NCBI GenBank assembly: GCA_043228905.1
Contig: JBHGNT010000014.1
Coordinates: 15,748,001-15,812,000, forward strand
Origin: Azolla caroliniana
Lineage: Eukaryota; Plantae; Polypodiophyta
DNA length: 64,000 nt
Reading direction: 5' to 3'
Below the pieces are notes generated by a model, which was not told the origin of the DNA, did no database searches, and saw only the letters and a program-made list of their open reading frames with translations. A program made the position numbers and the translations under genes. Below are positions 716 to 37,109 of this stretch, piece by piece (the stretch's first letter is position 1; each line of letters begins with the position of its first letter).

Positions 716-719
716 CAAA

Positions 720-1335
720 CATTTGACATCGATGAAGGCTAGGGAAAGTAGTGTTGATGACGACACCAAGAGGTGTTGAAGATGATGATGTCGAAGACGA
801 AGCAATGAAGACAATGATGTTGAGGAAGCGTCTTTGGAAGTAATGATTGTGACTATGGCAATGATGGAAATAGAGACGTAGATGAAGAGGAGAAGAAACA
901 CAAAATTCGAGACGTTGAGGATGAAAAGAAACACAAAAATAGAGATATAGAGGATGATAGAAAACACAATGACAGGGACGAAGATCATAAGAAACACATA
1001 GATAGGGATGATGATGATAAGAAACACATAGATAGAGATGAAACTGGTAGGAAACACAAGGAGAAGGATGACAATGAAAAAAAAACGCAGAGATAGGGAT
1101 GATGATGATAAGTAATACGGAGATAGATATGTGAAGGATGAGAAGAAACTAAAAAACAGAGATGATGATGAGGAGAAACTAAAAGACAGAGACAACGATG
1201 AGAAGGAACTAGGAGATAGAGATGACGAGGAAAATAGGAAATGAAGGGATGTTGATGACAGTAACTCTGGAAGCAAGGACGGCGACGATGGTAACTCTAG
1301 AAGCAAGGGCGATGACGAAGATGAGCGATGCTTCT
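720..1335. repeat. Degenerate purine-rich low-complexity repeat (GATGACGA/GAAGAAAC motifs), probably retroelement-derived
   Basis: Recurrent ~30-36 bp motifs such as GATGATGA..AGAAACT..AGACAGA. It lies between the 48-bp array and an LTR end at 1355. Confidence 0.6.
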
Positions 1336-4084: not shown

Positions 4085-4425
4085 TCTTGTTAATATACAG
4101 TTTTCTGGTTTTCTGTATAGTATGCAATGAAGGCATGGTAGAGGATGAATGTCACTTGCTCTTCACATGCTCGACATATAGTGCAATTCGTTCAAGATAT
4201 GTTGACATACTAAGAGGGAGTGATAACTTAAGATCCATACTTAAGACACAACTTAGAAGCTTGAGCTCATATGTGTATGCTTTATTAACACATAGAGACT
4301 TTGTGCTTCAACATATGAATACCCCTTCTTAGGAATGAGACATATATCAAGAACACATGTATACTCTGGTCCCATAGGTCAAAATTGGCCTCTTTATGGA
4401 CGATAAAAATTCTAATTCTAATTCT

Positions 4426-12373: not shown

Positions 12374-12420
12374 GGTGGGAAGGCCCATCAACACGAGGGA
12401 AATAGAGACAAAATGAGAGG

Positions 12421-12453
<33 letters not shown>

Positions 12454-12810
12454 AGGTCTCTAATGGATGAGGAAGGATACTTTTTGTTCTGTTTGTTCTA
12501 TGAAGAAACTGAAAGGAAATGAGGGGTATTTATATGAGCAACTTGGTATCTTTGTGGGTGAGTAGTTATAGTGCAGAGAATCCATTCAAAACTTAGAATA
12601 AAACAACTGCACCACAGAGAAAAAGAGGAAGGAGGAAGAGGAGGAGGAGGAGGAAGAGGAGAAAAAACAATGTTAAAAAGGAGAATTTCCTGGTTTTCTT
12701 TTGCTATAAAAAATATATATATATATATATATATTCTTAACAAAAGGCGAGCGATCCTGAAGCACCAAAGAAAGGTGGATTCCTCCCTCTTCCCATTACA
12801 GATCAATACC

Positions 12811-16906: not shown

Positions 16907-18997
16907 TTAGGTGGTTACGTAGATATTCGATAATAGAACAAATGCTGATGTGCAATGTGGATCAAGGTCATGAACCTTCTGGGAAGCATACTGTGCAAGA
17001 TTGATATCACCCGATAGTTTACAAGCATTAAGCAAAGCCATCCACACTGAGGCTGTAGGTTCTACCTCTACAACCTTAATAAATGCTAATGCCTCCATGA
17101 TTTGCCCTGCTCTACCCAATAGGTCAACCATACAAGCACAAACTTCAGAAGTGGGCATTATTCCATGCCGTTTTTTCATCATATCAAAGTATGCACAACC
17201 CTCTTTCACTAGGCCAGAATGGGTACAGGCAGAAAGAATGCCAACGAAAGTGATATCATCGATCCGCACACATTCTCTTTCCATCTCAAGAAACACTTCC
17301 ACTGCCTTGTCTGCCATCCCGAGCTGACCATATCCAGCAATCATCGCACTCCACGAGACTTCATCCCGGGTGGACATAGTCTCGAACACTTCACGTGCAT
17401 GATGTGGCATGCCACATTTACCATACATGTCAATAAGAGTGCTACCCACAAAAACATCTGAGTCAAACCCATTGTCATAAATGCAAGCATGGATACATCT
17501 TCCATGCTCAAAAGCTCCTAGATTTGCACAAGCTTTCAGAATGGTTAGGAATGTGACTTTATCTGGCTTCACATCCATCTTAACCATCTTTTGAAACAAA
17601 ACCAATGCCTCTATGGGAGATTCATGAACACAATATGCAGCAATGATGGCATTCCAAGACACTAAGTCTTGCTCAGTCATATAATCGAATACATGGCGAG
17701 CATCTTCAAGAACTCCACATTTCGCATACATATCGACAATGGCACTGCCTACAAAGGGCCATGCCCCCATTCCACATTGTGTTATCCGACTATAAACACT
17801 TTCGCCCATAGCAAGGTAATGCAACCTTGCACATGCCTTCAGGAGACTAAGGTATGTAACCTTGTCAGGTGCCATTCTCTTCTCTTTTTCCATCTTTCTA
17901 AAAAACCCAATGGCTTCTGCTGCATCACCATGTTCAGCATAAGCTAAAATAATGCTATTCCACAAAGGTACATCTTGCATGCTGACTCTTTCAAGTATCA
18001 TGTGTGCATAGCTCATATTGCCAAAAGTAGCATACATATCAATGAGGGCACTCGCTATAAAACTGTCCGATTCTAGAGCATTGCTATTCATTTCAGCATG
18101 AAGCTGATGTAATAATTCTAACTTATTCGTGCAAGCCTTTATAACAGAAAGAAAGGTCACTTCATCGGGTTTAAATCCCTTACTCTTCATATCATGGAAG
18201 AGCTCAAATGCCTTCTCAGGAAGACCATGCTGTACAAGGCCAGAAATTATCGTATTCCACGACACAATAGAGAAAACTGGCAATTCCCTGAAGAGATATA
18301 GGGCATCCTCGATGTTTCCATGTTTGCAATACATGTCCAAAAGAGTGTTTCTGACATAAAGATTGTAGTGGGGGCCATGACCACTAACATATGCATGAAC
18401 ATGCATAAGACTTGAGGATGTGGTACAAGCCTTAAGAGCATTGACACATGTAACTCCATTAAGATTTACCCCTTCCTGGATCATTGTCGAAAAGAGGTTG
18501 AAAGCATGTTTGAGGTGGTTGGATCTCACATAAAACCCAATCATAGAAGTCCATGTGTCTGTATCCTTATGTGGCGTGCTTTCAAAGACATTTTCAGCAT
18601 CTTTGAAACTATCACATTTCATGTACACATTCAAGAGAAGATTTCTCAATGTGGAATTTTGCACAAATCCATTTTCCCTTATATGATCATGAATATGATG
18701 AGCTCCTATCAGCGTCTTTGCTTGTATACACTCTTTTAGAAGACACGTATATGCCTCAAAGAGATTGAATTCTACTACAGCTTCATTCTTCTTATTTTTC
18801 TTCTTCTTTACATCTAGAAGGTTTATAGCTCTTTTCCAATAACCTTTTCTGCAAAGAAATCTTAGAGCTTCATATGGATCATCTAATTCTAGAGTTTCTC
18901 TAAAGTCATCAGAAGTAGAAAACCTTGAAACATGTGACTGCCTGTAAGATCTTCCAAAAGGGAACTTTCCATAGGTCTTTTCAAAGACCAAGACCAT
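16907..18997 (-). CDS. PLS-class pentatricopeptide repeat protein ending in an E1 motif, no DYW domain; about 696 aa, intronless CDS
   Basis: Repeated P-L-S triplets (SWNTIISG, PDKVTFLTILKAC, FVGSTLIDMYGKCG). It ends with CMVDLLGRAG ... WMALLNACK ... FVLLSNIY. ATG is at 18997 with an in-frame TGA at 19003-19001 upstream. Confidence 0.95.
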   Translation of the reverse strand: MVLVFEKTYGKFPFGRSYRQSHVSRFSTSDDFRETLELDDPYEALRFLCRKGYWKRAINLLDVKKKKNKKNEAVVEFNLFEAYTCLLKECIQAKTLIGAHHIHDHIRENGFVQNSTLRNLLLNVYMKCDSFKDAENVFESTPHKDTDTWTSMIGFYVRSNHLKHAFNLFSTMIQEGVNLNGVTCVNALKACTTSSSLMHVHAYVSGHGPHYNLYVRNTLLDMYCKHGNIEDALYLFRELPVFSIVSWNTIISGLVQHGLPEKAFELFHDMKSKGFKPDEVTFLSVIKACTNKLELLHQLHAEMNSNALESDSFIASALIDMYATFGNMSYAHMILERVSMQDVPLWNSIILAYAEHGDAAEAIGFFRKMEKEKRMAPDKVTYLSLLKACARLHYLAMGESVYSRITQCGMGAWPFVGSAIVDMYAKCGVLEDARHVFDYMTEQDLVSWNAIIAAYCVHESPIEALVLFQKMVKMDVKPDKVTFLTILKACANLGAFEHGRCIHACIYDNGFDSDVFVGSTLIDMYGKCGMPHHAREVFETMSTRDEVSWSAMIAGYGQLGMADKAVEVFLEMERECVRIDDITFVGILSACTHSGLVKEGCAYFDMMKKRHGIMPTSEVCACMVDLLGRAGQIMEALAFIKVVEVEPTASVWMALLNACKLSGDINLAQYASQKVHDLDPHCTSAFVLLSNIYVTT

Positions 18998-19119
18998 CAC
19001 TCACATATAATTTTGTGCTTGTGTGTCTCATGGCAGAGTTCTCTGTAGGATAAACAGACGTAAAAGCCAGCAAATTTTCTGACAGAATTCTCTGTTGGAG
19101 AATCAGAGTAAAAAACAAC

Positions 19120-19985
19120 ACCATCTGTGCCCTGTCTTGATAACACCATGAGGAGATGATTTTATTGACAATGATAAGCCACAAAATTTCACATTTCTAG
19201 CATTGTTTCTGGTTTGTTAAATGATTACTCTTTCTTCATCCACGCAGAATATTTGCAAAACTAAATTTGGTTATAAGATTCGGTGCTACTTGACATCTAC
19301 ATCTCTCAGAGTATATTCAAGAGACATACACAATGTTCAGTAATGATGCAAATCATTGTGTACAGCAGAAGTATGTAAAATCAAAGAAAAAGCAAAATTG
19401 ACAATCAAATGCTAAAAGAAAAAGAGCTGAAGCGATTGTAATTGCAATGCAGGAAAAAATATATATGCGAAAAGGCGTTGACGTTCATTTGCAATTAATT
19501 GTAAACAAATGGATGATGAAGTGCTGAAAGAAAACAAGAAGCAATGGATAATATTAAAGAGAGATGGACATCGAATCATCGGGCATTAGCAGAAGAAAAA
19601 AAAAACTGCAAAACGAAAATGGCCTTTAGGATCAAACCAACTACAAGAAAACAATACTCAATGGTATCGAGCATGTCTGATCATTCACTCCCCTCGCAAC
19701 TCTGTATATGAATTAGAATTAGAATTTTTTTCGTCCATAAAGAGGCCAGTTTTGACCTATGGGGCCATTAAGAGAAATAAAGTAACAGAGAAAGATATTC
19801 ATTGGATCCATAACGTGAGGATGAGAAAGAAGTCTTGAGAAAGAGAGAGACAGAGGCAGAGGCAGAGATGTAGAGAAACTTACATGAGAAGAGGAGAGCT
19901 GCAGCGGTACCAAGGAAGCCGAATGAGGAGAGGGGGCAGTGCGGTCGCCAGAAGTGCTCGACATAGCTCTGTGTGTCTGTGTGTG
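19120..19985 (-). pseudogene. Inverted duplicate of V-ATPase c 5'UTR, exon 1 (frameshifted) and proximal intron 1; probable leader of the PPR transcript
   Basis: ATG at 19964 and GTAAG donor after 19884 give an 81-nt exon, versus 76 nt at 31872-31947 (net +5 nt around GCCCCCTCTCCTCATTC). Colinear similarity to about 31860-32737 continues down to about 19120. Confidence 0.9.
19710..19770 (-). mobile_element. Very short LINE family A 3' tail
   Basis: Reverse complement GGCCCCATAGGTCAAAACTGGCCTCTTTATGGACGAAAAAAATTCTAATTCTAATT matches 4368-4430. It is not seen as such at the paralogous position near 32070. Confidence 0.85.
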
Positions 19986-19986
19986 C

Positions 19987-20030
<44 letters not shown>

Positions 20031-20179
20031 GAGTACTGTAGAGAAACAGAGTAATAGAGAGGAACAGAGTATGTACATAATGTAGAGGAACAGAGTAGTG
20101 AAGAGAAAACGAGTAGTGTAGAGGATGGGACAAAAAGGAAGCTCTAATTTAATTGAATGGCTACTAGATTAGGCTTAAT

Positions 20180-21420
20180 TACAATGCAGGATTTCATGAT
20201 GGTCTCACAAAAATGATTAATGGCATTTTGGACAGGCATGTCCAACATTTGGTACATCCAAGAGTTGTATAGGTATTATTGGGTTTCTTCGTATCGCAAC
20301 GTTTAATTCCCCCATGTTTGGATGAAGGATCACGAATAGCTTGATTTGGACATTTGCTAGGAAAGGAGTCTTGCCAATATGTATATGAATGAATGATGTC
20401 GTAAGAAACATGGATGGAGGAAAGAGCTATAAAAAAAAGTGTGGGGATTCCAAATGCCTATAACTTGACGGCAACATGTGATTGAGGTGGTTTGGTAATG
20501 TTGAAGAGTTGCAGTATTCATTTGGAGGATTATGGTTGGGGCCTTTGTTTCAGAGATGCATTAAGTCAAAGAACAACTGCTATTTTGATGTATTTCTTTT
20601 GCTCAATCGAAGTTGATAATTTGTAGGCATCGATTTGTTTCATGTCCAATGAGAATAATGGTTCAGAAGGTCATGAATGTTGTTAGAGTGATGATCTAAT
20701 GTAAGCATATGATAAGGATATAATATATATGAGATAAGAAAGGAGAGAGAGAAAGAAGGGTGCCGATCCACCCGACCACCCCCGAGCAAAGGGATCGAGA
20801 TGGACTTGAGCCTCGATCGGCGTCCCATACCACCATTGTGGCGTCGAGTGGTACTTGGTGCTAGTGCGCTCGCTACAAGAGTTGACCCACCACGAAACAG
20901 AGTCTTGACATAGTCAAGAGATTATGAAATGAGGGTAGCTAGGCCTCATATTTATGGTGAGACCCAAGCCCCGCCAGGCAAGTTCACACTTGGCCTAATG
21001 GGTTGTCTCAATCACGAGGATTAAAAGTAATCCTCCCCTTCTTTACACTCTCATTTAACCCTCACACTTATCCACGTGTATAGAATACTACGATAATTGT
21101 CACCATGGGATATTATATGGTCATGCCTGTAACAAATGTAATGTGGATGCGTCTAACCTGAATAATAAGATCTCCATTCAATTCGATATTTGTATACATG
21201 GAGTTAATTGAACTGATGTCCCACTTTCAAGTTATTTTGGTGCACTTAAGGGATTGGATGTTATGGTTCAATTGAAGTGTGAGAAATGCTTTGTTTCCTA
21301 ATTTATAAGTTGGGCAAAAGAAATATGTACGAGGTTTAAAACAAAATAATTGGGAAAATTCCATTGTTGGAAAAGTTGAGGAATCTATTGCATAAACATT
21401 GAAGAGCAAGAATTATGTAA
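20180..21420 (+). mobile_element. Eroded L1-like LINE 3' region, split by a solo LTR
   Basis: Broken motif-like words near 21190-21300 (CP...W; LW...RN..F) resemble the plant L1 zf-RVT region. Confidence 0.35.
20681..21134. mobile_element. Solo LTR (454 bp)
   Basis: TGTTA...TAACA termini with perfect 5-bp TSD AATGT at 20676-20680 and 21135-21139. Confidence 0.85.
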
Positions 21421-21614
21421 GGGGTAAATGTCATCATATTCATCGCCTAAATTTGTCTATGGGGTGAGAGTGAGTTCAAAGTATTTGGATAATAGAGAAA
21501 TCCAAAGTTCGTTGTAAGGTAGTCTTGGTGATGTGGATCCCAAAGGGATCCAAATTCCATTGTAAGTTAGTCATGGTGGTGTTTTTCTTTCGTAATGAAA
21601 TTTGTTATCTATGG

Positions 21615-21671
<57 letters not shown>

Positions 21672-21979
21672 TCTTTCACTATTGATAATTGTTAGGATTG
21701 GATAGACATGCACCCTATTGTTGGTGAGGCATGCAAAGAGTGGGTGCCAATCCACCTTCAAGTGTGCTAATGAATCACCTAGTTTCCTTTAACAAACTTT
21801 CTAAATGTCTCTAACCTTAATCTTACACGAAAATACTTACTGTAATAATGCACTAATAGACTCATCTTAAACATTAATAGTTCACAAAATCAAGAGTGTG
21901 AAATCAACATTAAGAAATCACAAAAAATATACTATTAAGTGTTTGCATATATCAACCATTAACAATCATATTCCTTCTT

Positions 21980-22086
21980 AAGCTTGTGAAGATGTTACAA
22001 TGGTTTAAACAAGCTTGAAGAAATTAGAGTGGGCATAAGGGAAAAAATTAAGGTATTGAGAGGTTAGGTGTTCTAGGCTCTAGCTT

Positions 22087-22121
<35 letters not shown>

Positions 22122-22345
22122 TCAAGTGCATTGGTGCATCTATCTAGGTAGGTGACATTTGTTTGAGTAAACAAGCTTGTGAAGATGTTACAATAGTTTA
22201 AACACGCTTGAAGAAATTAGAGTGGGCATAAGGAAAAAGATTAAGGTATTGAGAGGTTAGGTGTTCTAGGCTCTAGCTTGAGAGAGAGAGAGTCAAGTGC
22301 ATTGGTGCATCTATCTAGGTAGGTGACATTTGTTTGAGTAAACAA
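21980..22345. repeat. Tandem duplication of about 170-190 bp containing a variable (GA)n tract
   Basis: AAGCTTGTGAAGATGTTACAAT...GGTGACATTTGTTTGAGTAAAC occurs twice, differing mainly in GA repeat length. Confidence 0.9.
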
Positions 22346-22749
22346 GGTCTCTCTAAACAAGCTTCTTGCATTATGCCAAGAATGACAAATGAAAAGATAA
22401 GAGAGAAGTATAGCATGTCTAAATGTAAACAAACATCTCATACGAGTTTGCTTCTAAAAAAGATGCATGTTTTCGTTATTTGTCCACTTCAATGAATGTG
22501 ATGTATATATGCATGAACACAAAGAGTTTCTTTAAAGCCTCATCCATTGATAGCATGATAGACGGAGACATTATTATTTTGAGAATATCCAGTTGGAAAT
22601 TCCGATGAACGTCGTCAATGTGGTTCCAACGGGCAAATGCAAACTTCATGCTTGGCATTTACAAGTTAATATTTAAGTTTCCTTTTGACCTTGAGAGAAC
22701 ATTTTTGTACTATTTTCACATTAGAGTATTTAGAGAGTGAGAAAATCTA

Positions 22750-23470
22750 TTAATTTTTACTATGTTCCTCCAATAGAAAACTTTGTTAGAAAATATATTG
22801 GCTTTTACCCCAATTTCTCCAAAACTCTCCCATGAGACACACGCAAAGCTATATGTAAGTGATGCTCTTGGCTTTTATGGTAAGTTTCCATTTGGAAGAA
22901 TTTACAATCAATCACATGTTTCTAGGTTTTCTTCTTTTGATGGCTTTAGAGAAACTCTAGAATTAGAGAATATATGTGAAGTTATGACACATATAAACCT
23001 TTTAGGTGTAAGAAGAGGATGAAGAAAAATAAGGATAATGAAGACATAGAATTTAATCCTTTTGAGACATTTATTTGTCTTCTAAAAGAGCGCATACACA
23101 CAAAGTTTGTGATAGGAGCCCATTAGATTCATAATCATATAAGGGAAAATGGATTTGCGCATAATTCCACATTGAATGGCCTTCTCTTGAATGTGTTGCG
23201 TGTACATGAAATGTGGTAGTTTCAAAGATGTTGAAAACATGTCACATAGGGATACAAGACATGGGGACTTCTATGGTTGTGTTTTATGTGAGATTTGCCT
23301 TCAACATCTTTTCTACAATTGTTAATGAAATGGTAACTCTCAAAGGATTTTCATTCGTTAATGTTATTAAAGCTTGTACCACACATCAAAACCTAATGCA
23401 TGTTCATGCATATGCTATTGGTTGTGGTCCTTACCACAACCTTTTGTCTGAAACACTCTCTTGAACATGG
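22750..23470 (+). pseudogene. Truncated, decayed inverted copy of the 5' part of the PPR gene
   Basis: YGKFPFGRIYNQSHVSRFSSFDGFRETLELE versus YGKFPFGRSYRQSHVSRFSTSDDFRETLELD, and IKACTTHQNLMHVHAY versus LKACTTSSSLMHVHAY. It has stops and deletions and includes the upstream acceptor-like region. Confidence 0.92.
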
Positions 23471-23837
23471 AAGTTATAAAGTCTTTGTGTTGATTTGCCA
23501 TATAGTACTTCTTACTGATGTGTTTCTTTTTTAGAACCACGACGAGGTTGATGTATAGAGATGTATGTATCATTATTTACCCTTGGCAAGACCAATGAGA
23601 GCGGGACAGAGCCATTCTTGACCTACTTATGTATCAACAAACTACTCAAGTAAACTCTAATCTTACTCTTTGACTTAATCACATTCAAACAATTAATGAT
23701 CAAATCGAGCACATGTAGGGCTTTACCACGTTTGATCACACTCCTTAGAGAATGAAGGCACGAAAAGCTTCCATGAATGTGCTTAAATACTTACAAGCTT
23801 CGTTGGGTACAAAGGCTTAGGGCTTGGGATTAGGAGA

Positions 23838-24246
23838 TGTAAAGAATTGTGTACGATTCTTGTGTAGCGGAATAGGTGTGAACTATGTGTGTGTGTGTAT
23901 GAGAGAGAGAGAGTGTGTGTGTGTGTGTGAGAGAGAGAGAGACAAGGAGTAAGAAACAGAGTATACGCAAGGTAAGTATATTAACAAAGGAGAAAGACTC
24001 AACATCATACAAGGTGGGAGGAGGGTGCTTTATATAGTCACCCTCTCTCTAAATTAACTATAAGACTCATGGAGCATGGGGAATGTGAAAGCTCATAAGT
24101 TATGTGTCATAGAATATGATTCTATGACTCATACTAAATGTTATAATACAAAGTGGTGACATAATGGTGACTCTTGACCGTTGGAGTGTCTATTCACTCT
24201 CAAGGTGAGTTCACACACTAGACCAAGTTGAGGTTGATTCTCAACA
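23838..24246 (-). mobile_element. Solo LTR, same family as 26431-26817
   Basis: TGTAAAG...CTCAACA termini with perfect TSD GGAGA. It is close to the reverse complement of 26431-26817. Confidence 0.9.
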
Positions 24247-26430
24247 GGAGAGATAGATAGATAATCTATTATCGTCTTCGGAAGTCAAATATGACCTATG
24301 AGACCAGAGAGAGAGAGAGAGAGAGAGACTCTTCAATGACAATAATCTAAGGTTGAAGAAGAGTGGAAAATACACAACTCTGATCATGATGGACCGTGGC
24401 ATATCTTAAACATAGTTGGCATTCTAAATCGCCACTTGTAGAAAAGGTCTTCATTTGGACAGTTTTGATTGAGGTTTTGCCTTTGGGATTAGCTCTAAAG
24501 CAATGGGAAATGGCTTCTTTTGCACTGCTCAAATGGAAGATAATACTCATCATTTCATACAATGTCCGATTGCTTGTCACATTTGGAGTTACATTTCTCA
24601 AGTTTGGCAAGTTTTATCACAGTGTTATTTGACGCCTAAATAGTGGGTGTTTGCATAATTCACACATGTTCGACCGAAAATTAGAGATGAAGATTATCTT
24701 CCTATTTTTGAGTTATTGGGGATTGTGTCGTAATGGGGATATGCGGAATGCGTTTGTGTTTGATGGTAAGCATGGAGGCAAAGCATATCTACGAAAGTTG
24801 AAGGGACTATTAATGTGGCAATTTTCTATATTGGAGTAAGTGAGACTTTTTTCCTCAGTGGAGTGTGTTGAATACGGGTGTATAATGGTCGATGTATTCA
24901 CATTGTCCCATTTGGACATACTAGGTTAGGACATATTTACAATAAAGTCAAAGGGCAGTTGCCCTAGTTCAATTATTATATAGGTGACTTTGTAACCTAG
25001 TTCATGGAGTCGCCATTCATTGTATTGTAACGTTTGAATAATACAATTATAGTTCGTGCCTTTGTGTGTCTCTCTCTCACTCTGTCTTGATCTTGTATTC
25101 TGGTTAAGTTGTCCTGCAACTATCGGCTTTAATTTGTTCATCTTGTTTATCTATCATCAACTTGTTGTTCTTCAACATCTAAGTGTTGTTTCTGTTTTCG
25201 TAGTGACGGCCTCACCGCCAACATCTGGTATCAAAGTAGAGGTTCTTCAATTTGTTGTTAACTGTCACTTGTCTTCAACAACATCTTTGATCACACCCCT
25301 TGAGGACCTCAAGTTGATCTGACTCTTGGAACAAATTCTAAATTTCAGTCGGACTAAAATATTTTGATCGACAACCAACAAGATCACATCTTGAGAAGAG
25401 AAACTTGTAACTGATTCACACTTCATTGAGCTAGACCATTCTTCAAGTAGGCTAGACAGCTATACTTTCTTCTCGAGGTCGTAGTCACACGGAGTGGAAT
25501 TGTGATTTGATCGACACCATTTGTGCTCCAACTAGCTAGGCGATATTTGGGGAGACCAGTCAGTTTTGTCCCTCTACTCGATGTAGTCACTCGGAGCAGG
25601 ATCGAGATCTTGATTGGCACCACTTGCACTTAATCCATAATTGGCAATTCAATCAAAAAATCCATCTCAATTTCGACTAAGCAAAAACTAGAATAGACCA
25701 GTTGGCTCTACTCCGATTCGGCTGTAGTCACTTCGAGAGCCGACTAGCCGATTTAGTTTGTGTTTGACTTGACTAGAACAAATTCGAGTGAACCCGTTGG
25801 TTGCACCCTCTTAACATTCATAGTCATCTTCGGACAAAACTCCCAACCGGCACAAATCTAGAATGGCATCCATATCAGACTCATTAGAGACGAGCCTCAG
25901 AAAGTTCAATAGATCGAACTTCAACTTCTAGAAGGAGCAAATGCAAGATTATATGATAGTGAAGAGTCAGATTGACCCAATTGAGAGCGAAAATTCTCCA
26001 TAAGGATATACGCCGACTGAATGAACGAAGTTGGACCAAATTGTCCATGCCACCATTCGGATGCACTTATCCGAATCCGTCTACTACATGGTGTAGTCAT
26101 GTACGACAACTTTCAAACTATGGAAAACACTGTCGATCACTTACAAGAAGAAGATAGCCACCACCAAGATATATTTGATCCAATTCCTCTATAACCTTTG
26201 AATAAAAGAGTTTGATTCCATCCAACACACCTTAACGAGTACGAAAGTTTAAACTCCCAATGTTCGGCCCAAGGGATCACGTTGACGATGAGTTGAAAGC
26301 TATGTTGCTAATGAGTAGTCTCCCCCCCTTGTGGGAAACCTTCACCACTACCGTGTGCAATATGTCGGCTTTCGTAATGAAGTACTCTGAAGTCACAAGC
26401 TCAATTTTGACAGAAGTTCTCACAACAAAT

Positions 26431-26817
26431 TGTTGAGAATCAAGCTCAACTTGGTCTAGTGTGTGAACTCACCTTGAGAGTGAAGAGACACTCCAACGGT
26501 CAAGAGTCATCATTATGTCACCCCTTTGTATTCTAGCATTTAGTATGAGTCATAGAATCATATTCTATGACACATAACTTATGAGCTTTCACATTCCCCA
26601 TGCTCCATGAGTCTTGTAGTTAATGAAGAGAGAGGGTGACTATATAAAGCACCCTCCTCCCACCTTGTATAACGTTGAGTCTTTCTCCTTTGTCAATATA
26701 CTTTTACCTTGCGTATTCTCTATGTTTCACTCACTCACTCACTCACTCTCTCTCTTACACACACACATAACTCACATCTCTTCCGCTTCACAAGAATCCA
26801 TCTCTTGATTCTTTACA
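26431..26817 (+). mobile_element. Solo LTR nested in copia gag
   Basis: TGTTGAG...CTTTACA termini, perfect TSD CAAAT, TATATAAA at about 26641. Confidence 0.9.
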
Positions 26818-28344
26818 CAAATCAATTGTACATGATTCGGTAAGCGATGCCTACATAGTACAAGGTTCAGTTGACCAACCAAATAGTCGAGGAAGAAGTT
26901 CTTCTCGACATCCGAACAACGCAAGAAGCCGAAGCAAGTCTAGGGACAATCAAATATGCAACTATTGCAAAAAGTCGGGATACATTAAGGTCGATTGCTG
27001 TGCTCTCAAGTTCAACAACGACAAAGCTCAGAGATTAGAGCATAAGGGTAGCTAGCTGGAGGAGGTCAATTTTGTTGGCTCTTTAGCCGAAATCTTACAT
27101 ACCCCTTACATAATGACCTGGAAATTCTGTTCATCAAGAATTCAATCGAAGCGAAGTTTTGCACACAACCAAAGAATCCACAACGTGGCTTCTCGATTTG
27201 AGTGCGTCATACCATGTGACTCCTCACCAATCGTAGTTCCGGCAGTATTCGACTCGGCACTCCAACTCAGTCTGAGTCCAAAATTTGCAACATTCTGCGA
27301 TAATTAGCATCGACACATTAGAGCTTAACCTTCCGGGTGGCTCTACTCTTGTACTACACAATGTCTGACATGTACCTGAGCTCACCAAACTGTTGATATC
27401 AATCATACAATTGGCCAAAGACGACATCCATGCCAACTCCTGCTTGCCCGAGGGCCGAAGATTCATTCACGATACCCGCTATATGTCACTCTTAGAGAGG
27501 ATGACTTATTCCTGGTAGATATCCCTGTGTCATTACTATGGCACGACCAACTCAGACATCTCAGCAAGGCCTACATCACGCATCTATCTAGAGTCGACTA
27601 TATCCCCAAACTCTCCTTTTCTGATCATCAATTCTCCGAGCATTGTCAATATGGCAAGCAAGCTGCGACGTCACACCCTACAACCGCACTAAGAGAATCA
27701 ACTCTACTCGATTTGGTCCACTCGGACGTCCGATGCTACATCAGTCTCTCAATGGTGCCTCCTACTTCGTCATGTTCATTGACCACTCAACGAGGAAGGT
27801 GTGGGCATATCCGGTCCGAACCAAGGATCGCATGTTCACGATCTTTCGAGAATGGCTAACAATGGTGGAGAATCAAACCGGCCGAAAGTTGAAATGCTTG
27901 CAGTCCGAAAATGGAGGAAAGTATAAATATGAAGAGTTTGTCAGATTGTGCTGACAACGCAAGATTCGATGAGAATATACGACACCTCAAAGTCTGGGGC
28001 AGAATGGTATCATAGAGCGAATGAATCAGACAATACTTCGGACTGCCAGATGGTTTTTGGGCGGAGGCTCTACTCACAACAACGCACATAATCAACATGT
28101 TGCCAAGTAAACCCAAAGTGGATCGGCTATTGGAGAGATGATCGTCAAAGATGACCCGACGAGTCCAACCGTCCCACGCAGATCCGAATGACTATCTCAG
28201 CCACCAAAGAGATACTCACCTGGACTCTTCTTCACGGAGCCAATGTGATTCAAAGAAGCATAGGCATGTGCCGATTCGGCCACTCGGTATCTACTCGGTA
28301 TCTAGCTATGGAGTCTGAAATTGAGTCCATTCGACACAACAAGA

Positions 28345-28866
28345 TGTTAGGCTCGTGACTGGCCACAACCAGTTTCACTTTGAATATTCGGGTGCAAAGA
28401 TCAAGAAGGATAACGCACAGACCGAAAACGACAAAAAAACAGAGACAATATTTCACGTAGAAAACCCGAAAGGGAAAACCACGGGAGTCCTTGAACTCTG
28501 AACTAGATCACTATAAGGGGAGGAGTACAACGAGAGGCTCCAAGGCAACAACCTTGAGCTCTCCATCGTCAGACAGACGACTGTAGAGTTACTCACTCTC
28601 ACTCACTCTCTCTCACTCATAGTTATAGAGGCAACTATCTTTTGTGAAACTATACAACAACATTCACTAACTGACTCACACACAAATAAAGTTTGCCCTA
28701 GTTATATTTATACAACTTTATGGCTATTTACAGATATTGCCCACATGGGGCACATTCAGATTATTTACAAATATAGTCTCCCAAATCGGTTTTATAATCG
28801 AATCTCGATTTCATCTTATTCGGCTTGTACTCTTCTTCCCATCCGGAGGAACCTATTTTCCAAACA
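28345..28866 (-). mobile_element. Solo LTR nested in copia RT; same family as the 5' LTR at 45284
   Basis: TGTTAG...CAAACA termini with perfect TSD CAAGA. The host reading RHNK-T*DLVEL resumes across it. The reverse complement shares CCTCCGGATGGGAAG and GAGTTCAAGGACTCCCGTG with 45284-45850. Confidence 0.9.
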
Positions 28867-30533
28867 CAAGACCTGAGACTTAGTTGAACTACTGGCAAAT
28901 CAATGTGCTCTCCCAATGCAAATGGATTTATATGGAATAGTTTAAAGGCTTCATCGAACCCGGCCAAGAACTTCTAGTCTGCTGACTCAAGAAGAGTCTT
29001 TACGACCTGAAGTAGGCCCCAAAGTAGTGATATAAGAAGTTCGACGATTTTATACAATCGGTCAACTTCTTCAAGAGCGATGAGGACCACTGTCTTTTCT
29101 CAAAAACAACTAAAGATGGATCACCCATATTCCTCATCCTCTACATGGAGGACATACTTCTCTCCGACCAACATGCAGAGAGCTTGCCGACCTCATTCAA
29201 CAACTGCAGTTGAAGTTTGCCATGAAGAACCTAGGTCTGACAAGATAGATTCTGGGTATGAAAATCAGCCGACTCCGGAATCAACGACAAATATTCTTGT
29301 CTCAACCTGACCACATCAACCGTGTCTTGGAACTCTTCAACATGGAATCGGCCAAATCAGCTTCGACCCCATTCCCCATTACCCTTCGACTGTCTCAGCA
29401 AGATAGTCTGACATCTGGACCGACTGGGGAAGCTATGAAGTCGGTACCATATGCATTGGCAATCGGCTCCTTGATGTACTCGATGGTTGCAACACGGCCG
29501 AACATAGCTCACATCGTAGGAGTCGTCAACAGATTTATGCACAACCCTGACCAACAGCATTTGGAACCCAGTTCAACATGTATTCATATACTTGGTGGGC
29601 ACACAAGACCTTGGCATCCTCTTCAGTGCAAACAAGATCTCAAGCATTGTTGACTACACCGACTCAGACTTTGCCAACTGCCTAGACAATTGAAAGTCGA
29701 CGACCTGATATGTATTCAAATTCGACAATGGAGCGATCTCATGGAAGTTGAAACTTCAGGAATGCACAACCACTTCAACGATCAAATTTGAATACGTAGC
29801 CACGTCCGACACGGCGAAAGAAGTTGTATGGCTCGGTTGGTTAGCATGCACGTTTTGACAATCTGACTCCAATTCGGCTCTATTTGTCTACAACGCCCAC
29901 AATGTTGTCGCCTTGTCAAAGAACCTAGTCCACCATAACTCCTCGAAGCACATCGATGTTCGATATCACTTTGTTCGGGATTGTGTAACTACAGATAAGC
30001 TCGACCTCGAGAAGATCTTTGCTATTGACAACGTAGCAGACGGGATGACCAAGTGTCTTTCGGTTGACTGATTCCAGTCACTAAGGCACCAAATGGGCTT
30101 AAGGAGAAACCAATCCGATTGAGTCAAACACAGAGATGGTCGCAGACAATCGGTTTCAGACACTTTAGACAATCTTATTCAATTTGGCTTTAGTCTTTTG
30201 GACTAGCCGATTTGGCTTTCGTTATTTAGCCTTTGCCGATTCGGCAACCAGCCGAATTGTCTTAAACATCTCTTTGTATAAATCTGTAGATTGTTTATTC
30301 TTTTATTATAGATTTTTGTTGTATACACCCATTACAAGGGAGTATCGAATACAGGTGTATAATGTTTGTATTCACATTATCCCATTTGGACATACTAGGT
30401 TAGGATATATTTACAATAAAGCCAAAGGGCAGTTGCCCTAGTTCAATTATTATATAACTGACTTTGTAACCTAGTTCATAGAGTTGCCATTCATTGTATT
30501 GTAACGTTTGAATAATACAGTTTCAGTTCGTAC

Positions 30534-30567
<34 letters not shown>

Positions 30568-30682
30568 CTCTCACGCTGTCTTGATCTTGTATTCTAGTTA
30601 AGTTTTCTTGCGATTCTCGGTTTTAATTTGTTCATCTTGTTAATCTATCATCAACTTGTTGTTCTTCAACACCTAAGTGTTG

Positions 30683-31134
30683 TGTTAAAGATTAGGTAAT
30701 TAATTAAGGAATAATTATTACCTGTTAAAGATTAGGTTAAGCGATTACGTAGCGGAAGATTAAGTGATATGTGCGTGTATGTGTGCGTGAGAGGAAGAGA
30801 GAGAGAAGTACACTTATGAACACCAAAACAAGATGGGGGATGATAAAGTATATTAAAAGGTAAATATCATCATCTATCATCAAATACAAAAATACCTTCA
30901 ATGAGGTATATACATAGGTTTCATGTGCAAGGGTGCACATGTGCTAGGAGAATATAGGTACAACGTGTAAGTCCTATATTAAATGAGCATGGAGTGGTAG
31001 ATCTACAATGTATCTCACTCAAGTACAAAATCCTATTTAAGGCTTTATGGTCAACACACTAACTAGATTCTATCTAGGTAACTACTAAGTTACATGTGTT
31101 GACTAACTAAACTAAGTTGAGCTTGATCTCTCAA
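30683..31134 (-). mobile_element. LTR-like insertion within the copia 3' LTR
   Basis: It interrupts the alignment of the 3' LTR with the 5' LTR. It begins TGTTAAAGATTAGG (repeated at 30723) and ends AAGTTGAGCTTGATCTCTCAA, like the 23838/26431 family end. The right end and TSD are damaged. Confidence 0.7.
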
Positions 31135-31754
31135 TTGTTTATGTGTCTGCACTAACGGCCTCACCCCCAACAGAGTGTTCGTTTGCCTATTGGCAATTCA
31201 ACATATATCCACAACCCATGTAGTTAGTGGGTGACAATACTCCGTTATGACACCCATTGTAAGTAGTGTTTTTCACACACATTTATTAATATAATTGTGT
31301 GGTTTTCACCAAAGAGAGAGAGAGAGAGAGAGAGACAAACATGCACTCGAGCTATGTGGGTAGATTGAGGAAGAACCCCTACAAATGGTTTATCGTTACA
31401 TCTTTATAGTTCAACCTTATTGAACATTATTACAAATTTAGAGGTTTATAATTAGTACCTTTATACCCAATTACAATGTTTAAGCCATTCTCTCTGTTGT
31501 CATGCATCTCCGGGAGGTGTTCAACGTATCCTTGAACTATATAGCACAGGATGTGAGACATCCAACATATACATACCTAACAAAAAAACATTGAGGATTC
31601 CTTCTTCCTCTTTTGTGAACACATTGGTTGGTCTCTTCTCTAATTTTAGGGGCAATTTGGGAGATAAACAAAACGGAGGGGTATGTGGAGAATAAACCAA
31701 AAGTAGAGTCCCTCACAAATACAACACAACACACACACACATACACGTTCATGA

Positions 31755-31797
<43 letters not shown>

Positions 31798-31871
31798 CTG
31801 TTTCCTCTCTCTCTGTTTATCTGTGTGTTGCTCTATTCCTCCGTCTCTGTCGAGCGCACTCACACAGAGCT

Positions 31872-31951
31872 ATGTCGAGCACTACTGGCGACAGCACAGC
31901 CCCCTTATTCGGTTTCCTTGGTGCCGCTGCAGCTCTCGTCTTCTCATGTAA

Positions 31952-32006
<55 letters not shown>

Positions 32007-35000
32007 AATCCTTTTTTCTCATTCTCACGTTATGGATCCAGAGAATATCTTTATCTGTTGCTTTAATTCTCTCCATAGGACTGTATCTTTGTCACAGAGT
32101 AATGAAATGATCAAACATGTTCGATACCGTTGATTCGTGTCTTGTTATGCGTCGGTTTGATCTCGAAGGCTACAAACAAATTTATTTTTGCAGTTTTCTT
32201 CTTCTTCTTCTTCTTCTTCTTCTTCTTCTTCCATGCTCAATGATTCGATGTCATGCTCTCAGTAATATTATCCATCGCTTCTTGTTTCATTTCAGCACTT
32301 TATCATAGATTTATTTGCAAATTCATGTCAATGGCTTGTTGCATCTTTTCTTTTTCCACGTTTGCAATTATGATTGCCTCGATTCTTGTGTTTTTAACAT
32401 TTTATTGTCTATTTGGCAGAAAATTCTTATAAATTATCTTTTGCGTTTCTCCTTTTCTTCGATTTTTCAAATATGGCTTTTCTGCACAATGATTTGCATA
32501 ATCACTGAACGTAATGGATGTCTCTTGGAAGTATTCTGAGAAATTCAGAAAGAGAAAACCTGTAGATGTCAAGGTACAAGTCCAATAACCATTTTTGGTT
32601 GTGCAAATATTCTGTGCAGGTGAAGAAATAGTAACCATGTAAGAAAACAAGAAATAATGCTAGAAATTTGAAAATTTATGGCTTTTCACGGTCTATGAAT
32701 CACCTCTTCATGGTATTGTAAAGAAAGGGCCCATATGATAGAACAAAAGGATCAGAATAATATATATAATTGAATTCGAATTGGTCTTGAAAAATATGTA
32801 ATAAAATGATTTAATATCAAATGAATGGTGGTCAATTTTAGAACAACAATGCTATTTGACTCCACAAATGAATATATGGTCTCACGAAGAGGGGTGTCTA
32901 ATCATTCGGGAGATGCAAAATTTCTTTTTCTTTGAGTTCATGGTTATGATCCCCAAACATGTCTTATCAGGATAGTCATTGATGGAGAGGACAAAACAAA
33001 AGGTTTAAAGCCTTTCTTGAAACAGCTGTGGATCTGTCCTCAGATCTCATAAATGTGAGTGCTAAATGGGTGATGCATATAGTTATGCGTGCTTTCATTC
33101 ATTGACCATAGTACAAAAATGATGTTTGACTATATGAAAACATTATGGCCAAAAACAACAATTTCCTGCACAGGTAAATGTTATTTCTAGCGAGCGCTAC
33201 TCAAAATTTGTTTTTCTTAACAGAGCTTAGCCTGAAATCTGCATGTCCTTATCACATTTCAATTGCTTCTTTATCAGCCCTGTGCATGACCTCGAGTCAT
33301 TGTCATATTTCCTTCATCTTGGCTTTTCCCTCAATGTTCATCTTGAGCCTAATGACATGTAACAACTTTTGGCTTGCAATTTCCTTCACATTTGCATCTT
33401 TTGCGTCAATTGTTTCTTCCAACCATGCCTAAATATTACTATTGCAGACTTATTCTGTGGTTCAGCATGTACTTGAGTCTTGTGGTTCAATTTTATATTC
33501 TCTGTAAATATATTGTTGTTTGATGGTATGAAGCACACAGGTTTCTTCTTTTTTTTATCTCAACAGTGAGTTTCATCACCTTTTAATTACAAGGTGTGAA
33601 TTGCATATTTGACCATGCTTAGTATTTGCAGTGCTGATGTCTTCACTACTGTCATTGTGAGTTTCAAATATGTATATGATCCGTCTCATTTTGAACTCTT
33701 CTAATTTCCTTACTGTACAAAGGAACTAGTAACAGGCATAACCCATTAAGAAACTTGAGGGCTAGTTGACTTTAAGCTAGCAGAGAACTTTCTTACCCTC
33801 AACATCTACCAAGAGGATGGGAATGGCACTCTTGAGAATCTGTTAGAAATATTGAGAATCGATTAGGTAGATATATAGAGTTACACTCATAAAAAAAAAC
33901 TTTCTATTACATATGAGAGTAGCTCACAATGGTAGTCCACCCAAGTTCTCACACCTTAGAGCTTAGATGGGACATGGACTAGTCGACTACAAAATTAGTG
34001 GGGACAAATAATAGTCACAGCCACTTTGTAAGAGAGAGATAGAGAAAGAAAGAAAGAAAGAAAGATATATTAACGTCTTTTAAGAGGCCAAAATGGCCTA
34101 TAAGACCAAACAAGAGATTACATCCTAAGTGTTGTCTCGTCTTTGAGAACAACAAATCAAAATAAAATAAATATTACTAAGTAAATATAAAAGTAAATAT
34201 GATAAAAAGAGACTAAAGAATCTGGTTTTCAGCACATCTGATATTCTCAAGTGAGATATATTTTAACTTTTGTCTTCAAAAGATCTCTAGCATAGGTTGA
34301 TCCTGAATGGAGAGGTCTCCGAAGCGAAGGAAGCACCTGCGATGGTGGGAGATAAGGGTTTTTATCTGTCAATGACAAGGGCGCTGAGGTCGTGGTCCGT
34401 GGGGCCAGAGCCTATGTGCACGACAAATTGCTATTGCCCGATCTATTGTAACCCCTTTATTATGTCTTGGTCGCAAGCCCATATGTGTATCCCTTGATTG
34501 ACTTGTAGCATTAGTAGGAGTGATGGTGCTAAAGAAAGTTCTGATTGTTCTTTGTGGATGAGCTTGTGTGGCTGTACTATTGTCCTTCAACAACTTTTCC
34601 CTAGGTCTCTTGAGTTCTAGCAAGAAAAGTCCTTGGCACGGTTGGTTCTTATATTCCATTACTTTGTGTAGTAGGCCAAAGCCTTGTTTAAAGAGGCAAT
34701 GGTATCTCCCTCTTATTTCATAAAAGACACTACGGTGACAAACATAGTCTTCTTCAGATTCCACTCCTTGATGAGAGAGAGAGTGGATATGTATATTCTC
34801 TTTTCGGTCTCAGTGTCACATTAAGTGTGCAAGTCAGTTGACAACAATGGGGATATTGCTTTTCTGTCAACTGACTTGTCATTCAATATGAACCAACTCC
34901 CTAGATACGAGCTAGTGCTAGATAGTACTCATCTTAAAGTCAATAGCACATACTTCAAGACTAAGTACATCTTACTTACCCACAAAGAATATTCTTCCAG

Positions 35001-37109
35001 TCAACTTGACTAGTCAATCCTATTACCCTACTTCCCTCTTTCCTAAATACATTTTGTCCTATTCATCTATGGTTTCCTACATTTACACATTATCAACCCA
35101 TGTGGTCGGGTTGCACAATAGTTACTCCTCATTTGGGATGCTATCACAAAATGTGCACTCTAAGAATACATGTAGGGATAAATTGATAACTTGGGTTGAT
35201 AATTGATTATATCCAACAGAATGGACTGTAACTTAGCGTGGCACTCCATATTCAAGAAGAGGAAGAATTATTTTAAAACAACAGAGAATTATGGTTTACT
35301 CTCCCTTTTATTCTATATATTCTCTCTTTTAGATTCTGTACAATTGAGCCATTTGGCAACTTATATATGCCACATGGCGGGTCACTATTCTGCTGTTCAG
35401 CTTCAATGGCCAAGAGATTGGGGCGCCTGACTAGCAGTCATTCCCATTCTAATCTAGTGCTGTGGCATATTTAAGCATTTTTACTTTTCTTATTTTATAC
35501 ATTGTAGCCTTCTAACCATTTCACACCTGCCGCTTTGTCTCAACCTACCTAAAGCTCTCTCATAACCGAAAAGATATCCTTTTTTATCATATGATCTATT
35601 TTCACTATACTTAATCCTATTCAATTCGAAATCCCGTTGGGGTATTTTATTCTGACTTTGGTAAAGGAGGATTATATTATACAAATTATTGAATTCGGAT
35701 AATACTCTTATTGATTCGTAAGTACCACTTTGCATGAAACTGAGGCGTGGCCAACATGCAATGTGACACACACAAGAACATCAATACAAAATTGGATCTA
35801 TATTTTTGTATCTTGTTGACTCTAGTTTCAACTTCAAGCCTTTATGTATCTGCAATGAAGTTCCTAAGCTTCACATTTTGTGTGTTGATGGTTTAATATT
35901 ATGATTTAAATACCAATAAATATATTTCTTCACTTGGATTTTTCATACATCAATCAAAATGACCGTCATTTGTATAGTAAACTTTGAAAAATATTCACAA
36001 TTTGGGAGATTCAAGTGAAATTGTAGCCATAAATAGAAATGCCATGTAGATATTTCATGCCACATGTAGTCCATATAGTAGAAATATGATGAATGGCAGG
36101 TAGATATTTGATTCCTGATTTAGGAGAGTCATGTTAAAACTGTAGCACATAACTAATAATGTCAGGTAGATAATTGATGCCACATGTACTCCATAGAGTA
36201 GAAAGTGATAAATGTTGAATGCATATTTAAAACATGACCTTGGTTTTTTCATCAAGGAATGGTCAGCCTGAGACTGTGTGCAGCCTAGAGTAGCAGAGTG
36301 GTATCTCCATGGTTTTACATTTTTAATAATATTATTTTGTATTTTTAATCATTTGATATATTACTAAATTTCTCTCTTTAATTCCGAATCAACTAGGAAA
36401 TTGTTTCAATTTTTTATTTACTTAGTAAGGTTTATTTTGGTTTGTTCTCAACTTATAGGCCATTTGGCCTTCTAAAAGGCGTATATGTATATATATATAT
36501 ATCTTTCTTTCTACTATGACGTGGTTCCTATTTCCAACGAACTACATATTACTACAAATTATGATTGGAATTAATGGCACTATGGCTGGATTTTTTAATG
36601 CGATAGGCATAGGTGCAGCATATGGAACTGCCAAAAGTGGTGTCGGTGTGGCATCCATGGGGGTAGTGAAGCCTGATCTAGTGATGAAATCAATTGTGCC
36701 AGTGGTAATGGCTGGTGTTCTCGGTATATATGGCCTGATTATAGCTGTGATTATCAGTACTGGAATAAACCCTTCAAGTACGGCATACTATTTATTTGAT
36801 GGTTATGCACATTTGGCATCTGGCCTTTCTTGTGGTCTAGCTGGTCTTGCTGCTGGTCTGGCCATCGGTATTGTTGGTGATGCAGGTGTCAGGTTAGGCC
36901 TATCCCGTTATATTATTTATATGTTTTAGTTTTGCTCCCTTTAGTAACCGATACATAAATGTTACCTTCTCTTTTGCAGGGCAAATGCACAACAACCTAA
37001 GCTTTTTGTTGGGATGATACTGATACTCATTTTTGCTGAGGCACTTGCATTGTATGGCCTCATTGTGGGCATTATTCTTGCTTCTCGAGCTGGCCAATCA
37101 AGAGAATGA
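31872..37109 (+). CDS. VHA-c: V-type H+-ATPase 16 kDa proteolipid subunit c, 163 aa, 3 exons
   Basis: Exons 31872-31947, 36607-36892 and 36980-37109 (76+286+130 nt, GT-AG). Protein [44 protein letters not shown]...[51 protein letters not shown]. The proton-binding Glu is retained. Confidence 0.96.
34045..34773 (-). mobile_element. 5'-truncated LINE family B copy in VHA-c intron 1
   Basis: [25 protein letters not shown] is nearly identical to the ORF at the right window edge. It has the 3' stem-loop GTCTTATAGGCCATTTTGGCCTCTTAAAAGAC and a (TTTC)n tail, with CT repeats on both flanks. Confidence 0.9.
36430..36510 (+). mobile_element. Short decayed LINE family B 3' tail
   Basis: CTTATAGGCCATTTGGCCTTCTAAAAGGCG...ATATCTTTCTTT resembles the family B terminus. 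Confidence 0.6.

What the first reader, a model, noticed from the sequence alone, without database searches (positions are those of the whole stretch)
16907..32740. PPR gene appears to use a duplicated V-ATPase c first exon and intron as its leader (promoter capture or fission of a nested locus)
Seen: 19120-19985(-) is a colinear inverted duplicate of the VHA-c 5'UTR, (CT)n tracts, exon 1, GTAAG donor and about 790 bp of intron 1 (about 31860-32737). Similarity stops about 30 bp before a pyrimidine-rich acceptor (CTCCAACAG, exon from 19091) that lies about 95 nt upstream of the PPR ATG. No VHA-c exon 2 or 3 was found downstream on that strand. Established: PLS-PPR genes often have intronless CDSs and are thought to have spread partly by retroposition, and VHA-c is a housekeeping gene. 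Inference: either a PPR copy acquired expression through a duplicated VHA-c promoter and exon 1, or an ancestral locus had the PPR nested in VHA-c intron 1 sharing exon 1, and each duplicate kept one product.
Basis: partly seen in the sequence, partly recalled or inferred. Interest (0 to 1): 0.8.

Follow-up and report, generated by a model that had tools for sequence, protein, structure and literature searches.

The report
Fern PPR gene borrows neighbour's leader
In a likely fern genome, an old RNA-binding (PPR) gene sits directly behind a copied first exon and intron of the neighbouring proton-pump gene, and it likely took over this borrowed front end in one local rearrangement while its likely parent copy next door decayed.

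Summary
The duplication is real: 19122-20084(-) copies the V-ATPase c (VHA-c) 5'UTR, exon 1 and 790 bp of intron 1 (31742-32737), score 813 against at most 85 for shuffles. The two blocks are equally diverged (about 0.24-0.29) and meet on the intact gene with 7 nt between them, in swapped order. That is the signature of one circular or template-switch duplication, and favours capture over fission of a nested locus; the Ceratopteris ortholog has no VHA-c beside it. Contigs of related organisms cross the junction, so it is not an assembly error. In one relative the contig leaves the genome at 19239, exactly at a CAG acceptor inside the copied intron; this window has lost that CAG. A splice to the copied exon 1 is likely but was not seen. 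The copied exon is frameshifted and could only be a uORF. Promoter homology beyond about 130 nt above the ATG is undetectable. A good new case of a known kind.

The parts
16907..18997 (-). Intact single-exon CDS of a PLS-class PPR protein, 696 aa, five P-L-S triplets and a truncated E motif, no DYW
   Evidence: colinear orthologs at 73, 53 and 47%
18998..19114 (-).
19115..19121 (-). Junction: 7 nt that belong to neither duplicated block
   Evidence: bridged by contigs of X1, X2, X3, X10
19122..19239 (-). VHA-c intron-derived stretch found in probable PPR transcripts (exonised 5'UTR)
   Evidence: contigs continuous with the PPR CDS in X1, X2, X10; homologous to 32621-32737
19240..19242 (-). Acceptor site: CAG in organism B and in VHA-c intron 1, TGG in this window
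   Evidence: X3 shows T at 19241 and G at 19242 on +; both equal the VHA-c letters; the X2 contig leaves the genome after 19239
19243..19883 (-). Copy of VHA-c intron 1 (5' part) with intact GTAAG donor; carries a 58-nt high-copy insertion at 19710-19767
19884..19964 (-). Copy of VHA-c coding exon 1, frameshifted by a 5-nt insertion; would be a uORF
19965..20084 (-). Copy of the VHA-c 5'UTR with (CT)n tract; upstream limit of detectable homology
22754..23469 (+). Decayed 5' fragment of the same PPR gene (frameshifts and stops), likely the parent copy
24870..30683 (+). LTR retroelement that fills most of the gap between the PPR fragment and VHA-c
   Evidence: direct repeats 24870-25189 / 30347-30683; PF13976 at 27380-27856
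31742..32737 (+). Source block: VHA-c 5'UTR, exon 1 (31872-31947) and 790 bp of intron 1, with TGCAG acceptor motif at 32616-32620
36607..37109 (+). VHA-c exons 2 (36607-36892) and 3 (36980-37109)

Best explanation
The intact PPR gene is a chimera whose front end is a copy of the neighbouring VHA-c 5'UTR, exon 1 and intron 1, likely made in one local DNA rearrangement and likely used as its spliced leader. Ancestrally a PPR gene likely lay about 2-3 kb upstream of VHA-c on the same strand. A segment from the PPR leader (22754) to VHA-c intron 1 (32737) was likely copied through a circle or a template switch, which joined its end to its start, and landed inverted next door. A cryptic acceptor in the copied intron (19242-19240) would let exon 1 splice to a new 5'UTR exon of 118 intron-derived bases plus the old PPR leader. 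Exon 1 decayed into a short uORF; translation starts at the PPR's own ATG, so the protein is unchanged. The parent PPR then decayed and the chimera replaced it. This window has since lost that acceptor and would use another one or retain the intron. Shown: the two blocks, their order, age and junction, the intact CDS, contigs through the junction, the break at 19239. Inferred: the mechanism, the direction, the use of the exon 1 copy.
For: Two + strand blocks (PPR fragment, then VHA-c 5' part) abut on the - strand gene in swapped order with 7 nt between; two independent breakpoints would fall that close about 1-3% of the time (rough). Equal divergence: K2P 0.29 and 0.24 for the intron copy, 0.24 and 0.235 for the PPR fragment. 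The fragment has no VHA-c-like sequence above it and the rest of VHA-c intron 1 has no PPR remnant (scores within shuffles). Without repeats, 2066 nt separate the blocks. The PPR is far older than the copy (47% ortholog KP509_07G067800) and no GO-marked VHA-c lies next to that locus. X2 contig fits 18638-19239 and has 29 unplaced letters; X3 of the same organism has CAG there and runs on to 19274. Donor GTAAG is intact. Bin arithmetic points to a second exon-1-like X2 piece over about 19941-19986 at depth 20-22 (4 of 6 solutions).
Against: No joint to 19884 was listed in either lay, and the 29 loose letters were not printed. The window has TGG at the acceptor. X1, the run that shares most words with the window, reads unspliced to 19341 and 19441; X10 has intron cover 19285-19683. 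No homology above 20084 with the region above 31742, nor between the PPR 3' flank and the spacer, so the rest of the supposed circle is not found. All runs are contigs whose RNA status is a guess by the tool. Ceratopteris is a distant outgroup and its table is GO-based. Several upstream ATGs lie in the leader.
Confidence: 0.53

Rival explanations
1. Same origin by rearrangement, but the copied exon 1 is not the working leader in this organism: PPR transcripts start inside the copied intron or come from another upstream exon, and the exon copy is a passenger.
For: No joint to 19884 seen. The window lacks the CAG used in organism B. X1 contigs run unspliced to 19341/19441. Exon copy divergence (7 of 76 sites, 5 at codon positions 1-2, plus a frameshift) shows no protein-level constraint. 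Homology ends about 130 nt above the ATG, so a promoter may not have been copied.
Against: In organism B the contig breaks exactly at an intact acceptor, which needs an upstream donor; the nearest known one is the intact GTAAG at 19883. X10 has sequence of the copy's type up to about 19713 (loose end at 19683), so if it is RNA, transcription starts above that.
Confidence: 0.22
2. Fission of a nested locus: the PPR once sat in VHA-c intron 1 and shared exon 1 by alternative splicing; after duplication one copy kept the PPR and the other kept VHA-c, the PPR piece being cut out at 32737 and left upstream as the fragment.
For: Complementary content of the two copies. VHA-c intron 1 still has an intact TGCAG at the site homologous to the acceptor used in organism B. 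Equal ages fit one duplication of a contiguous unit as well. Precedents exist (SODcp-RPL32, passage in PMC3052240).
Against: Needs a block swap or two deletions ending within 7 nt of each other. No PPR remnant in the remaining 3.9 kb of intron 1 and no exon 2/3 remnant beside the chimera. Ceratopteris ortholog has one transcript model and no GO-marked VHA-c next to it. The stretch below the acceptor is not better conserved than the intron (p 0.20 +/- 0.04 vs 0.24 +/- 0.02). No in-frame fusion is possible, unlike the known nested cases.
Confidence: 0.2
3. The block is a member of a transposon family that carries VHA-c exon 1 around the genome, or an assembly artefact, and has no bearing on the PPR.
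For: The region is rich in repeats and the copy carries a high-copy 58-nt insertion. An earlier finding of this scan described such a family in another genome.
Against: In the probable DNA run X3 the copied intron is covered at depth 4-11, like the PPR leader (7), while the 58-nt insertion reaches 15,154. No flanking terminal inverted repeats among the 25 longest of 33 pairs. About 20% divergence and contigs of three organisms across the junction exclude mis-assembly.
Confidence: 0.05

Closest known systems
Promoter and first-exon capture by segmental duplication: primate LRRC37 promoters copied from BPTF and DND1 (PMC3371713, abstract and introduction seen)
   Same: An older gene acquires a 5' end duplicated from an unrelated gene; the protein keeps its own start.
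   Different: Here donor and recipient are neighbours, the parent copy of the recipient has decayed, a coding exon becomes a uORF, and transcription from the copy is not yet shown.
Duplications through a circular intermediate with swapped block order (human segmental duplications, PMC7450558, abstract seen; tilapia vasa, PMC3245284, search listing only)
   Same: Block order A-B becomes B-A in the copy, with a short unassigned stretch at the new junction.
   Different: Only about 1.7 kb of the two blocks can still be aligned, the copy lies a few kb from its source, and the flanks of the opened circle were not found.
Nested, alternatively spliced genes and their later split: SODcp-RPL32 in mangrove and poplar (passage in PMC3052240); rps7 in trx-m3 and rps14 in sdh2 (passages in PMC7488351; the original papers were not read)
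   Same: A second gene downstream of a host's exon 1 and part of intron 1; two copies with complementary content.
   Different: In those cases exon 1 gives an in-frame transit peptide and a relative keeps the nested form. Here no in-frame fusion is possible and no nested relative was found.
PLS-class PPR proteins of early land plants (review PMC11897456, one passage seen)
   Same: Intronless CDS, P-L-S triplets, E motif; spread by retroposition or local duplication.
   Different: This ortholog group ends inside the E domain with no DYW; the copy here is DNA-based since it carries an intron.

Membership tests
Promoter/first-exon capture by duplication (LRRC37 type) | 5' region of the recipient is a duplicate of an unrelated gene's 5' region | tested here: met
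Promoter/first-exon capture by duplication (LRRC37 type) | Recipient transcripts start in the duplicated block and include the borrowed exon | tested here: inconclusive
   Intron-derived 19122-19239 is in probable transcripts and one contig breaks at an acceptor, but no joint to 19884 was listed
Promoter/first-exon capture by duplication (LRRC37 type) | The promoter itself, above the 5'UTR, was copied | tested here: inconclusive
   Homology ends about 130 nt above the ATG; scores further up lie within shuffles; the start site is unknown
Promoter/first-exon capture by duplication (LRRC37 type) | Recipient is older than the capture and an outgroup lacks the borrowed end | tested here: inconclusive
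   Orthologs at 47-73% show the gene is old; no VHA-c beside the Ceratopteris locus, but its DNA could not be read
Circular-intermediate / template-switch duplication | Block order swapped between source and copy | tested here: met
   PPR fragment then VHA-c 5' on +; VHA-c 5' then PPR in the copy
Circular-intermediate / template-switch duplication | Both blocks equally diverged (single event) | tested here: met
   K2P 0.235-0.29
Circular-intermediate / template-switch duplication | Microhomology or short indel at the new junction | tested here: inconclusive
   7 unassigned nt; 20% divergence blurs the ends
Circular-intermediate / template-switch duplication | The two halves of the opened spacer flank the copy | tested here: inconclusive
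   No homology found; the spacer is largely replaced by retroelements
Nested alternatively spliced gene split after duplication (SODcp-RPL32 type) | A relative keeps the nested, exon-sharing form | tested here: not met
   Only Ceratopteris could be checked, by locus numbers and GO terms; closer outgroups not available
Nested alternatively spliced gene split after duplication (SODcp-RPL32 type) | Shared exon 1 is translated in frame with the guest | tested here: not met
   All 16 exon/acceptor models stop before or out of frame with the PPR; 0 of 266 fetched proteins carry a VHA-c exon 1-like peptide at E<=1
Nested alternatively spliced gene split after duplication (SODcp-RPL32 type) | Remnants of the lost partner in each copy | tested here: not met
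PLS-class PPR protein | Tandem P-L-S triplets | tested here: met
   Five triplets at about 100-aa spacing; PF13041, PF01535 above cut-off
PLS-class PPR protein | Complete E and DYW editing domains | tested here: not met
   PF20431 21 bits, below cut-off 27.3, model positions 3-34 of 63; no DYW hit; orthologs end at the same place
PLS-class PPR protein | Binds an organellar RNA target | not testable with these tools
   function inferred from the family

The most novel reading that the evidence does not exclude
An ancestral fern locus made both the vacuolar proton-pump subunit and an organellar RNA-binding PPR protein from one first exon by alternative splicing, the pump's coding exon acting as a uORF for the PPR; duplication then split the two, the acceptor still visible in VHA-c intron 1 is its fossil, and a related fern may keep the dual gene. 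Unlike known nested plant genes, the two products would share no peptide and no compartment.
Probability: 0.2. Interest if true: 0.72.

Novelty: new member of a known kind. Interest (0 to 1): 0.47.

Why it matters
How intronless PPR genes get and change their expression signals is little documented. This locus keeps donor, recipient, likely parent and junction within 20 kb, and relatives differ in the acceptor they have, so each step of a leader swap (joining, exonisation of intron, decay of a coding exon to a uORF, loss of the parent, acceptor turnover) can be tested in one place. It would show a conserved gene replacing its whole front end without changing its protein.

Tried and rejected
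No whole genome is held for this window, so copy number genome-wide and a second intact PPR elsewhere could not be checked. No RNA holder is on record among the 11 runs listed; 6 of 11 were laid (X1, X2, X3, X4, X5, X10), all as contigs. X1 and X4 give no cover above 19441 and 19150 apart from the repeat, and X2 none over 19240-19498; holes prove nothing. X5 gave one VHA-c-type exon 1 record only. Protein search with residues 1-150 found nothing (0 of 78 candidates). Metagenome scans gave no ortholog with flanks (0 of 591; 80 loci at 26-38% identity, none with VHA-c exon 2; the DNA half failed). The profile search added one more ortholog (P0175, 56%) but no context. A gappy extension of the PPR fragment's alignment above 22754 was rejected: it scores like shuffles. 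Insertion of the VHA-c block into an already duplicated PPR leader was tested by looking for resumed homology above 20084 and was not supported. The bacterial promoter scan does not apply. Retroposition was rejected as the origin of the leader because an intron was copied. An in-frame VHA-c/PPR fusion protein was rejected. Look-ups of earlier findings by place and by the first word set were empty.
Full report
Observation. A self-comparison of the window finds the inverted duplicate at E 1e-94. Local alignment places it at 19122-20084(-) against 31742-32737(+), score 813, with 30 shuffles reaching at most 85. It covers the (CT)n 5'UTR, exon 1, the GTAAG donor and 790 bp of intron 1 of an intact VHA-c gene (exons 31872-31947, 36607-36892, 36980-37109; 163 aa; PF00137). 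The exon copy has a 5-nt insertion and 7 substitutions, 5 of them at codon positions 1-2. No other copy of exons 2-3 is in the window.

The PPR gene. 16907-18997(-) is one open frame of 696 aa with five P-L-S triplets, a partial E motif below the Pfam cut-off and no DYW hit. Colinear orthologs with the same truncated end exist at 73% (P0015), 53% (P0056) and 47% (Ceratopteris KP509_07G067800); P0175 is a fourth at 56%. The named ortholog makes a fern likely (inference). The gene is much older than the duplicate. A role in organellar RNA processing is inferred from the family only.

A second block. 22754-23469(+) is a decayed copy of the PPR's first 780 nt (18332-19114), with frameshifts. On the intact gene this block ends at 19114 and the VHA-c block at 19122, leaving 7 nt. 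Divergences agree: K2P 0.29 (523 sites) and 0.24 (119) for the intron copy, 0.24 (108) and 0.235 (598) for the PPR fragment. The fragment has nothing VHA-c-like above it (e.g. 105 of 200 shuffles score as high), the rest of VHA-c intron 1 has no PPR remnant (35 and 60 of 60 shuffles as high), and homology does not resume above 20084. Between the fragment and VHA-c lie 8272 nt, of which an LTR element and one repeat leave 2066. So the + strand reads PPR then VHA-c 5', and the intact gene reads VHA-c 5' then PPR: the end of a segment joined to its start. That order swap is the signature reported for circular-intermediate duplications (PMC7450558, abstract). One event explains both boundaries; independent breaks would fall within 7 nt about 1-3% of the time (rough). 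The flanks of the supposed circle were not found, so the mechanism remains inferred.

Reads. Eleven runs were listed, none on record as RNA; six were laid, all Logan contigs. The junction is bridged by 31 or more letters on both sides in X1, X2, X3 and X10 (organisms A, B, E); X4 reaches 29 letters past it. The chimera is therefore real and older than the split of these organisms, whose PPR pieces are about 94-100% identical and gap-free in the CDS pieces shown. In organism B, the X2 contig (631 letters, depth 15.6) fits 18638-19239 and has 29 letters left over. X3, same organism and marked probably DNA, runs on to 19274 and shows two changes that make CAG at 19242-19240 on the - strand; both equal the VHA-c intron letters. 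X2 looks like RNA because its VHA-c-type exon 1 piece has depth 123 against 8.9 for a VHA-c-type intron piece, whereas X3 is flat at 4-11 (inference; the tool calls it a guess). The simplest reading is a splice at an acceptor inside the copied intron, which turns 118 intron bases into 5'UTR. The 29 letters were not printed and no joint to 19884 was listed (joints at contig ends are filtered), so the upstream exon is not identified. Bin arithmetic suggests a second exon-1-like X2 piece over about 19941-19986 at depth 20-22 (4 of 6 solutions), which could be the copy or another VHA-c paralog. Against a clean picture: this window has TGG at the acceptor, X1 reads unspliced to 19341 and 19441, and X10 covers 19285-19683. 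Acceptor use seems to differ between lineages, or introns are often retained.

Translation. None of 16 exon/acceptor models gives a fusion. Splicing at 19239 gives a 31-codon uORF ending 227 nt before the PPR ATG; splicing at 19091 gives a 63-codon uORF overlapping it. Seven further ATGs lie between 19239 and 18998. None of 266 fetched proteins carries a VHA-c exon 1-like peptide. The borrowed exon can only be a leader, probably a damping one (inference).

Outgroup. In a Ceratopteris GO table (PMC13434465, supplement 11, cut when stored; rows seen by search), 22 rows carry GO:0033177; the nearest to Ceric.07G067800 are 07G057100 and 07G054700, over 100 locus numbers away. The flanking loci 07G067700 and 07G067900 have no GO term and the PPR has one transcript model. 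The match of KP509 and Ceric numbering, and the GO ids, are recalled. This argues against an ancient nested locus but not against one that arose later; four supplements were too large to read and may hold more.

Rivals. Fission of a nested locus fits the complementary content and the intact TGCAG at 32616-32620, and has precedents (passages in PMC3052240 and PMC7488351), but needs a block swap, leaves no remnants and offers no shared peptide: 0.2. A passenger exon with starts inside the intron is not excluded: 0.22. A repeat family or artefact is unlikely, since the block has single-copy depth in X3 beside a true repeat at 15,154 and no terminal inverted repeats were seen among the 25 longest of 33 pairs: 0.05.

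Comparison and novelty. It works like the promoter and first-exon capture described for LRRC37 (PMC3371713, abstract and introduction); membership is not settled because the start site is unknown and homology ends about 130 nt above the ATG. Six searches (listings only) returned no title or abstract start on this locus or on exon sharing by a PPR gene; most subscription papers are outside the library. PMC13317346 (passages) and PMC11897456 (passage) gave background only. Earlier findings of this scan describe similar captures in animals and an alga, so the kind is not rare.

Verdict. New member of a known kind; interest 0.47.

Noticed in passing
window 32616-32644 (+): VHA-c intron 1 holds an acceptor motif (TGCAG) followed 19 nt later by GTAAG: a possible cryptic or poison mini-exon; reading into it from exon 1 stops after 28 codons.
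   Followed up: partly
window 19710-19767 and 4367-4424: A 58-nt element, 95% alike at both places, inserted in the copied intron; depth up to 15,154 in X3, so a very high-copy short repeat.
   Followed up: partly
window 19884-19913, run X10: Bin arithmetic gives one piece of depth 31 covering exactly the last 30 nt of exon 1 and not the following G; what follows it is unknown.
   Followed up: partly
window 16941-17063 and 18197-19441, run X1: X1 holds two versions of the locus, one nearly identical to the window (0 of 123 and 1 of 152 other letters) and one about 94-97% alike: alleles, a homeolog or a second PPR copy.
   Followed up: no
window below 16907 (-): Contigs of 4 of 4 runs go at least 390 nt past the PPR stop, and the X1 record has about 800 more letters: a long 3'UTR if these are RNA.
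   Followed up: no
window 23855-24246 and 26431-26798: Two inverted copies (86%) of a 390-nt repeat, one inside the LTR element; look like solo LTRs.
   Followed up: no
window 11423-12529 (-): Exons of a neighbouring gene that resembles class I glutamine amidotransferase-like peptidases (recalled resemblance; no Pfam hit on the pieces).
   Followed up: partly
window about 42800-52000 (-): Multi-exon alpha/beta-hydrolase-like gene (weak PF12146 hit at 42834-43055, E 6e-4) with a retroelement (PF22936, PF13976 at 46446-47315, +) apparently inside it.
   Followed up: partly
window 1-742: Tandem repeat array that leaves long open frames on both strands.
   Followed up: no
window 62920-63999 (+): Open frame of at least 360 aa running off the window, like the end of a LINE reverse transcriptase (recalled resemblance; no Pfam hit).
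   Followed up: partly
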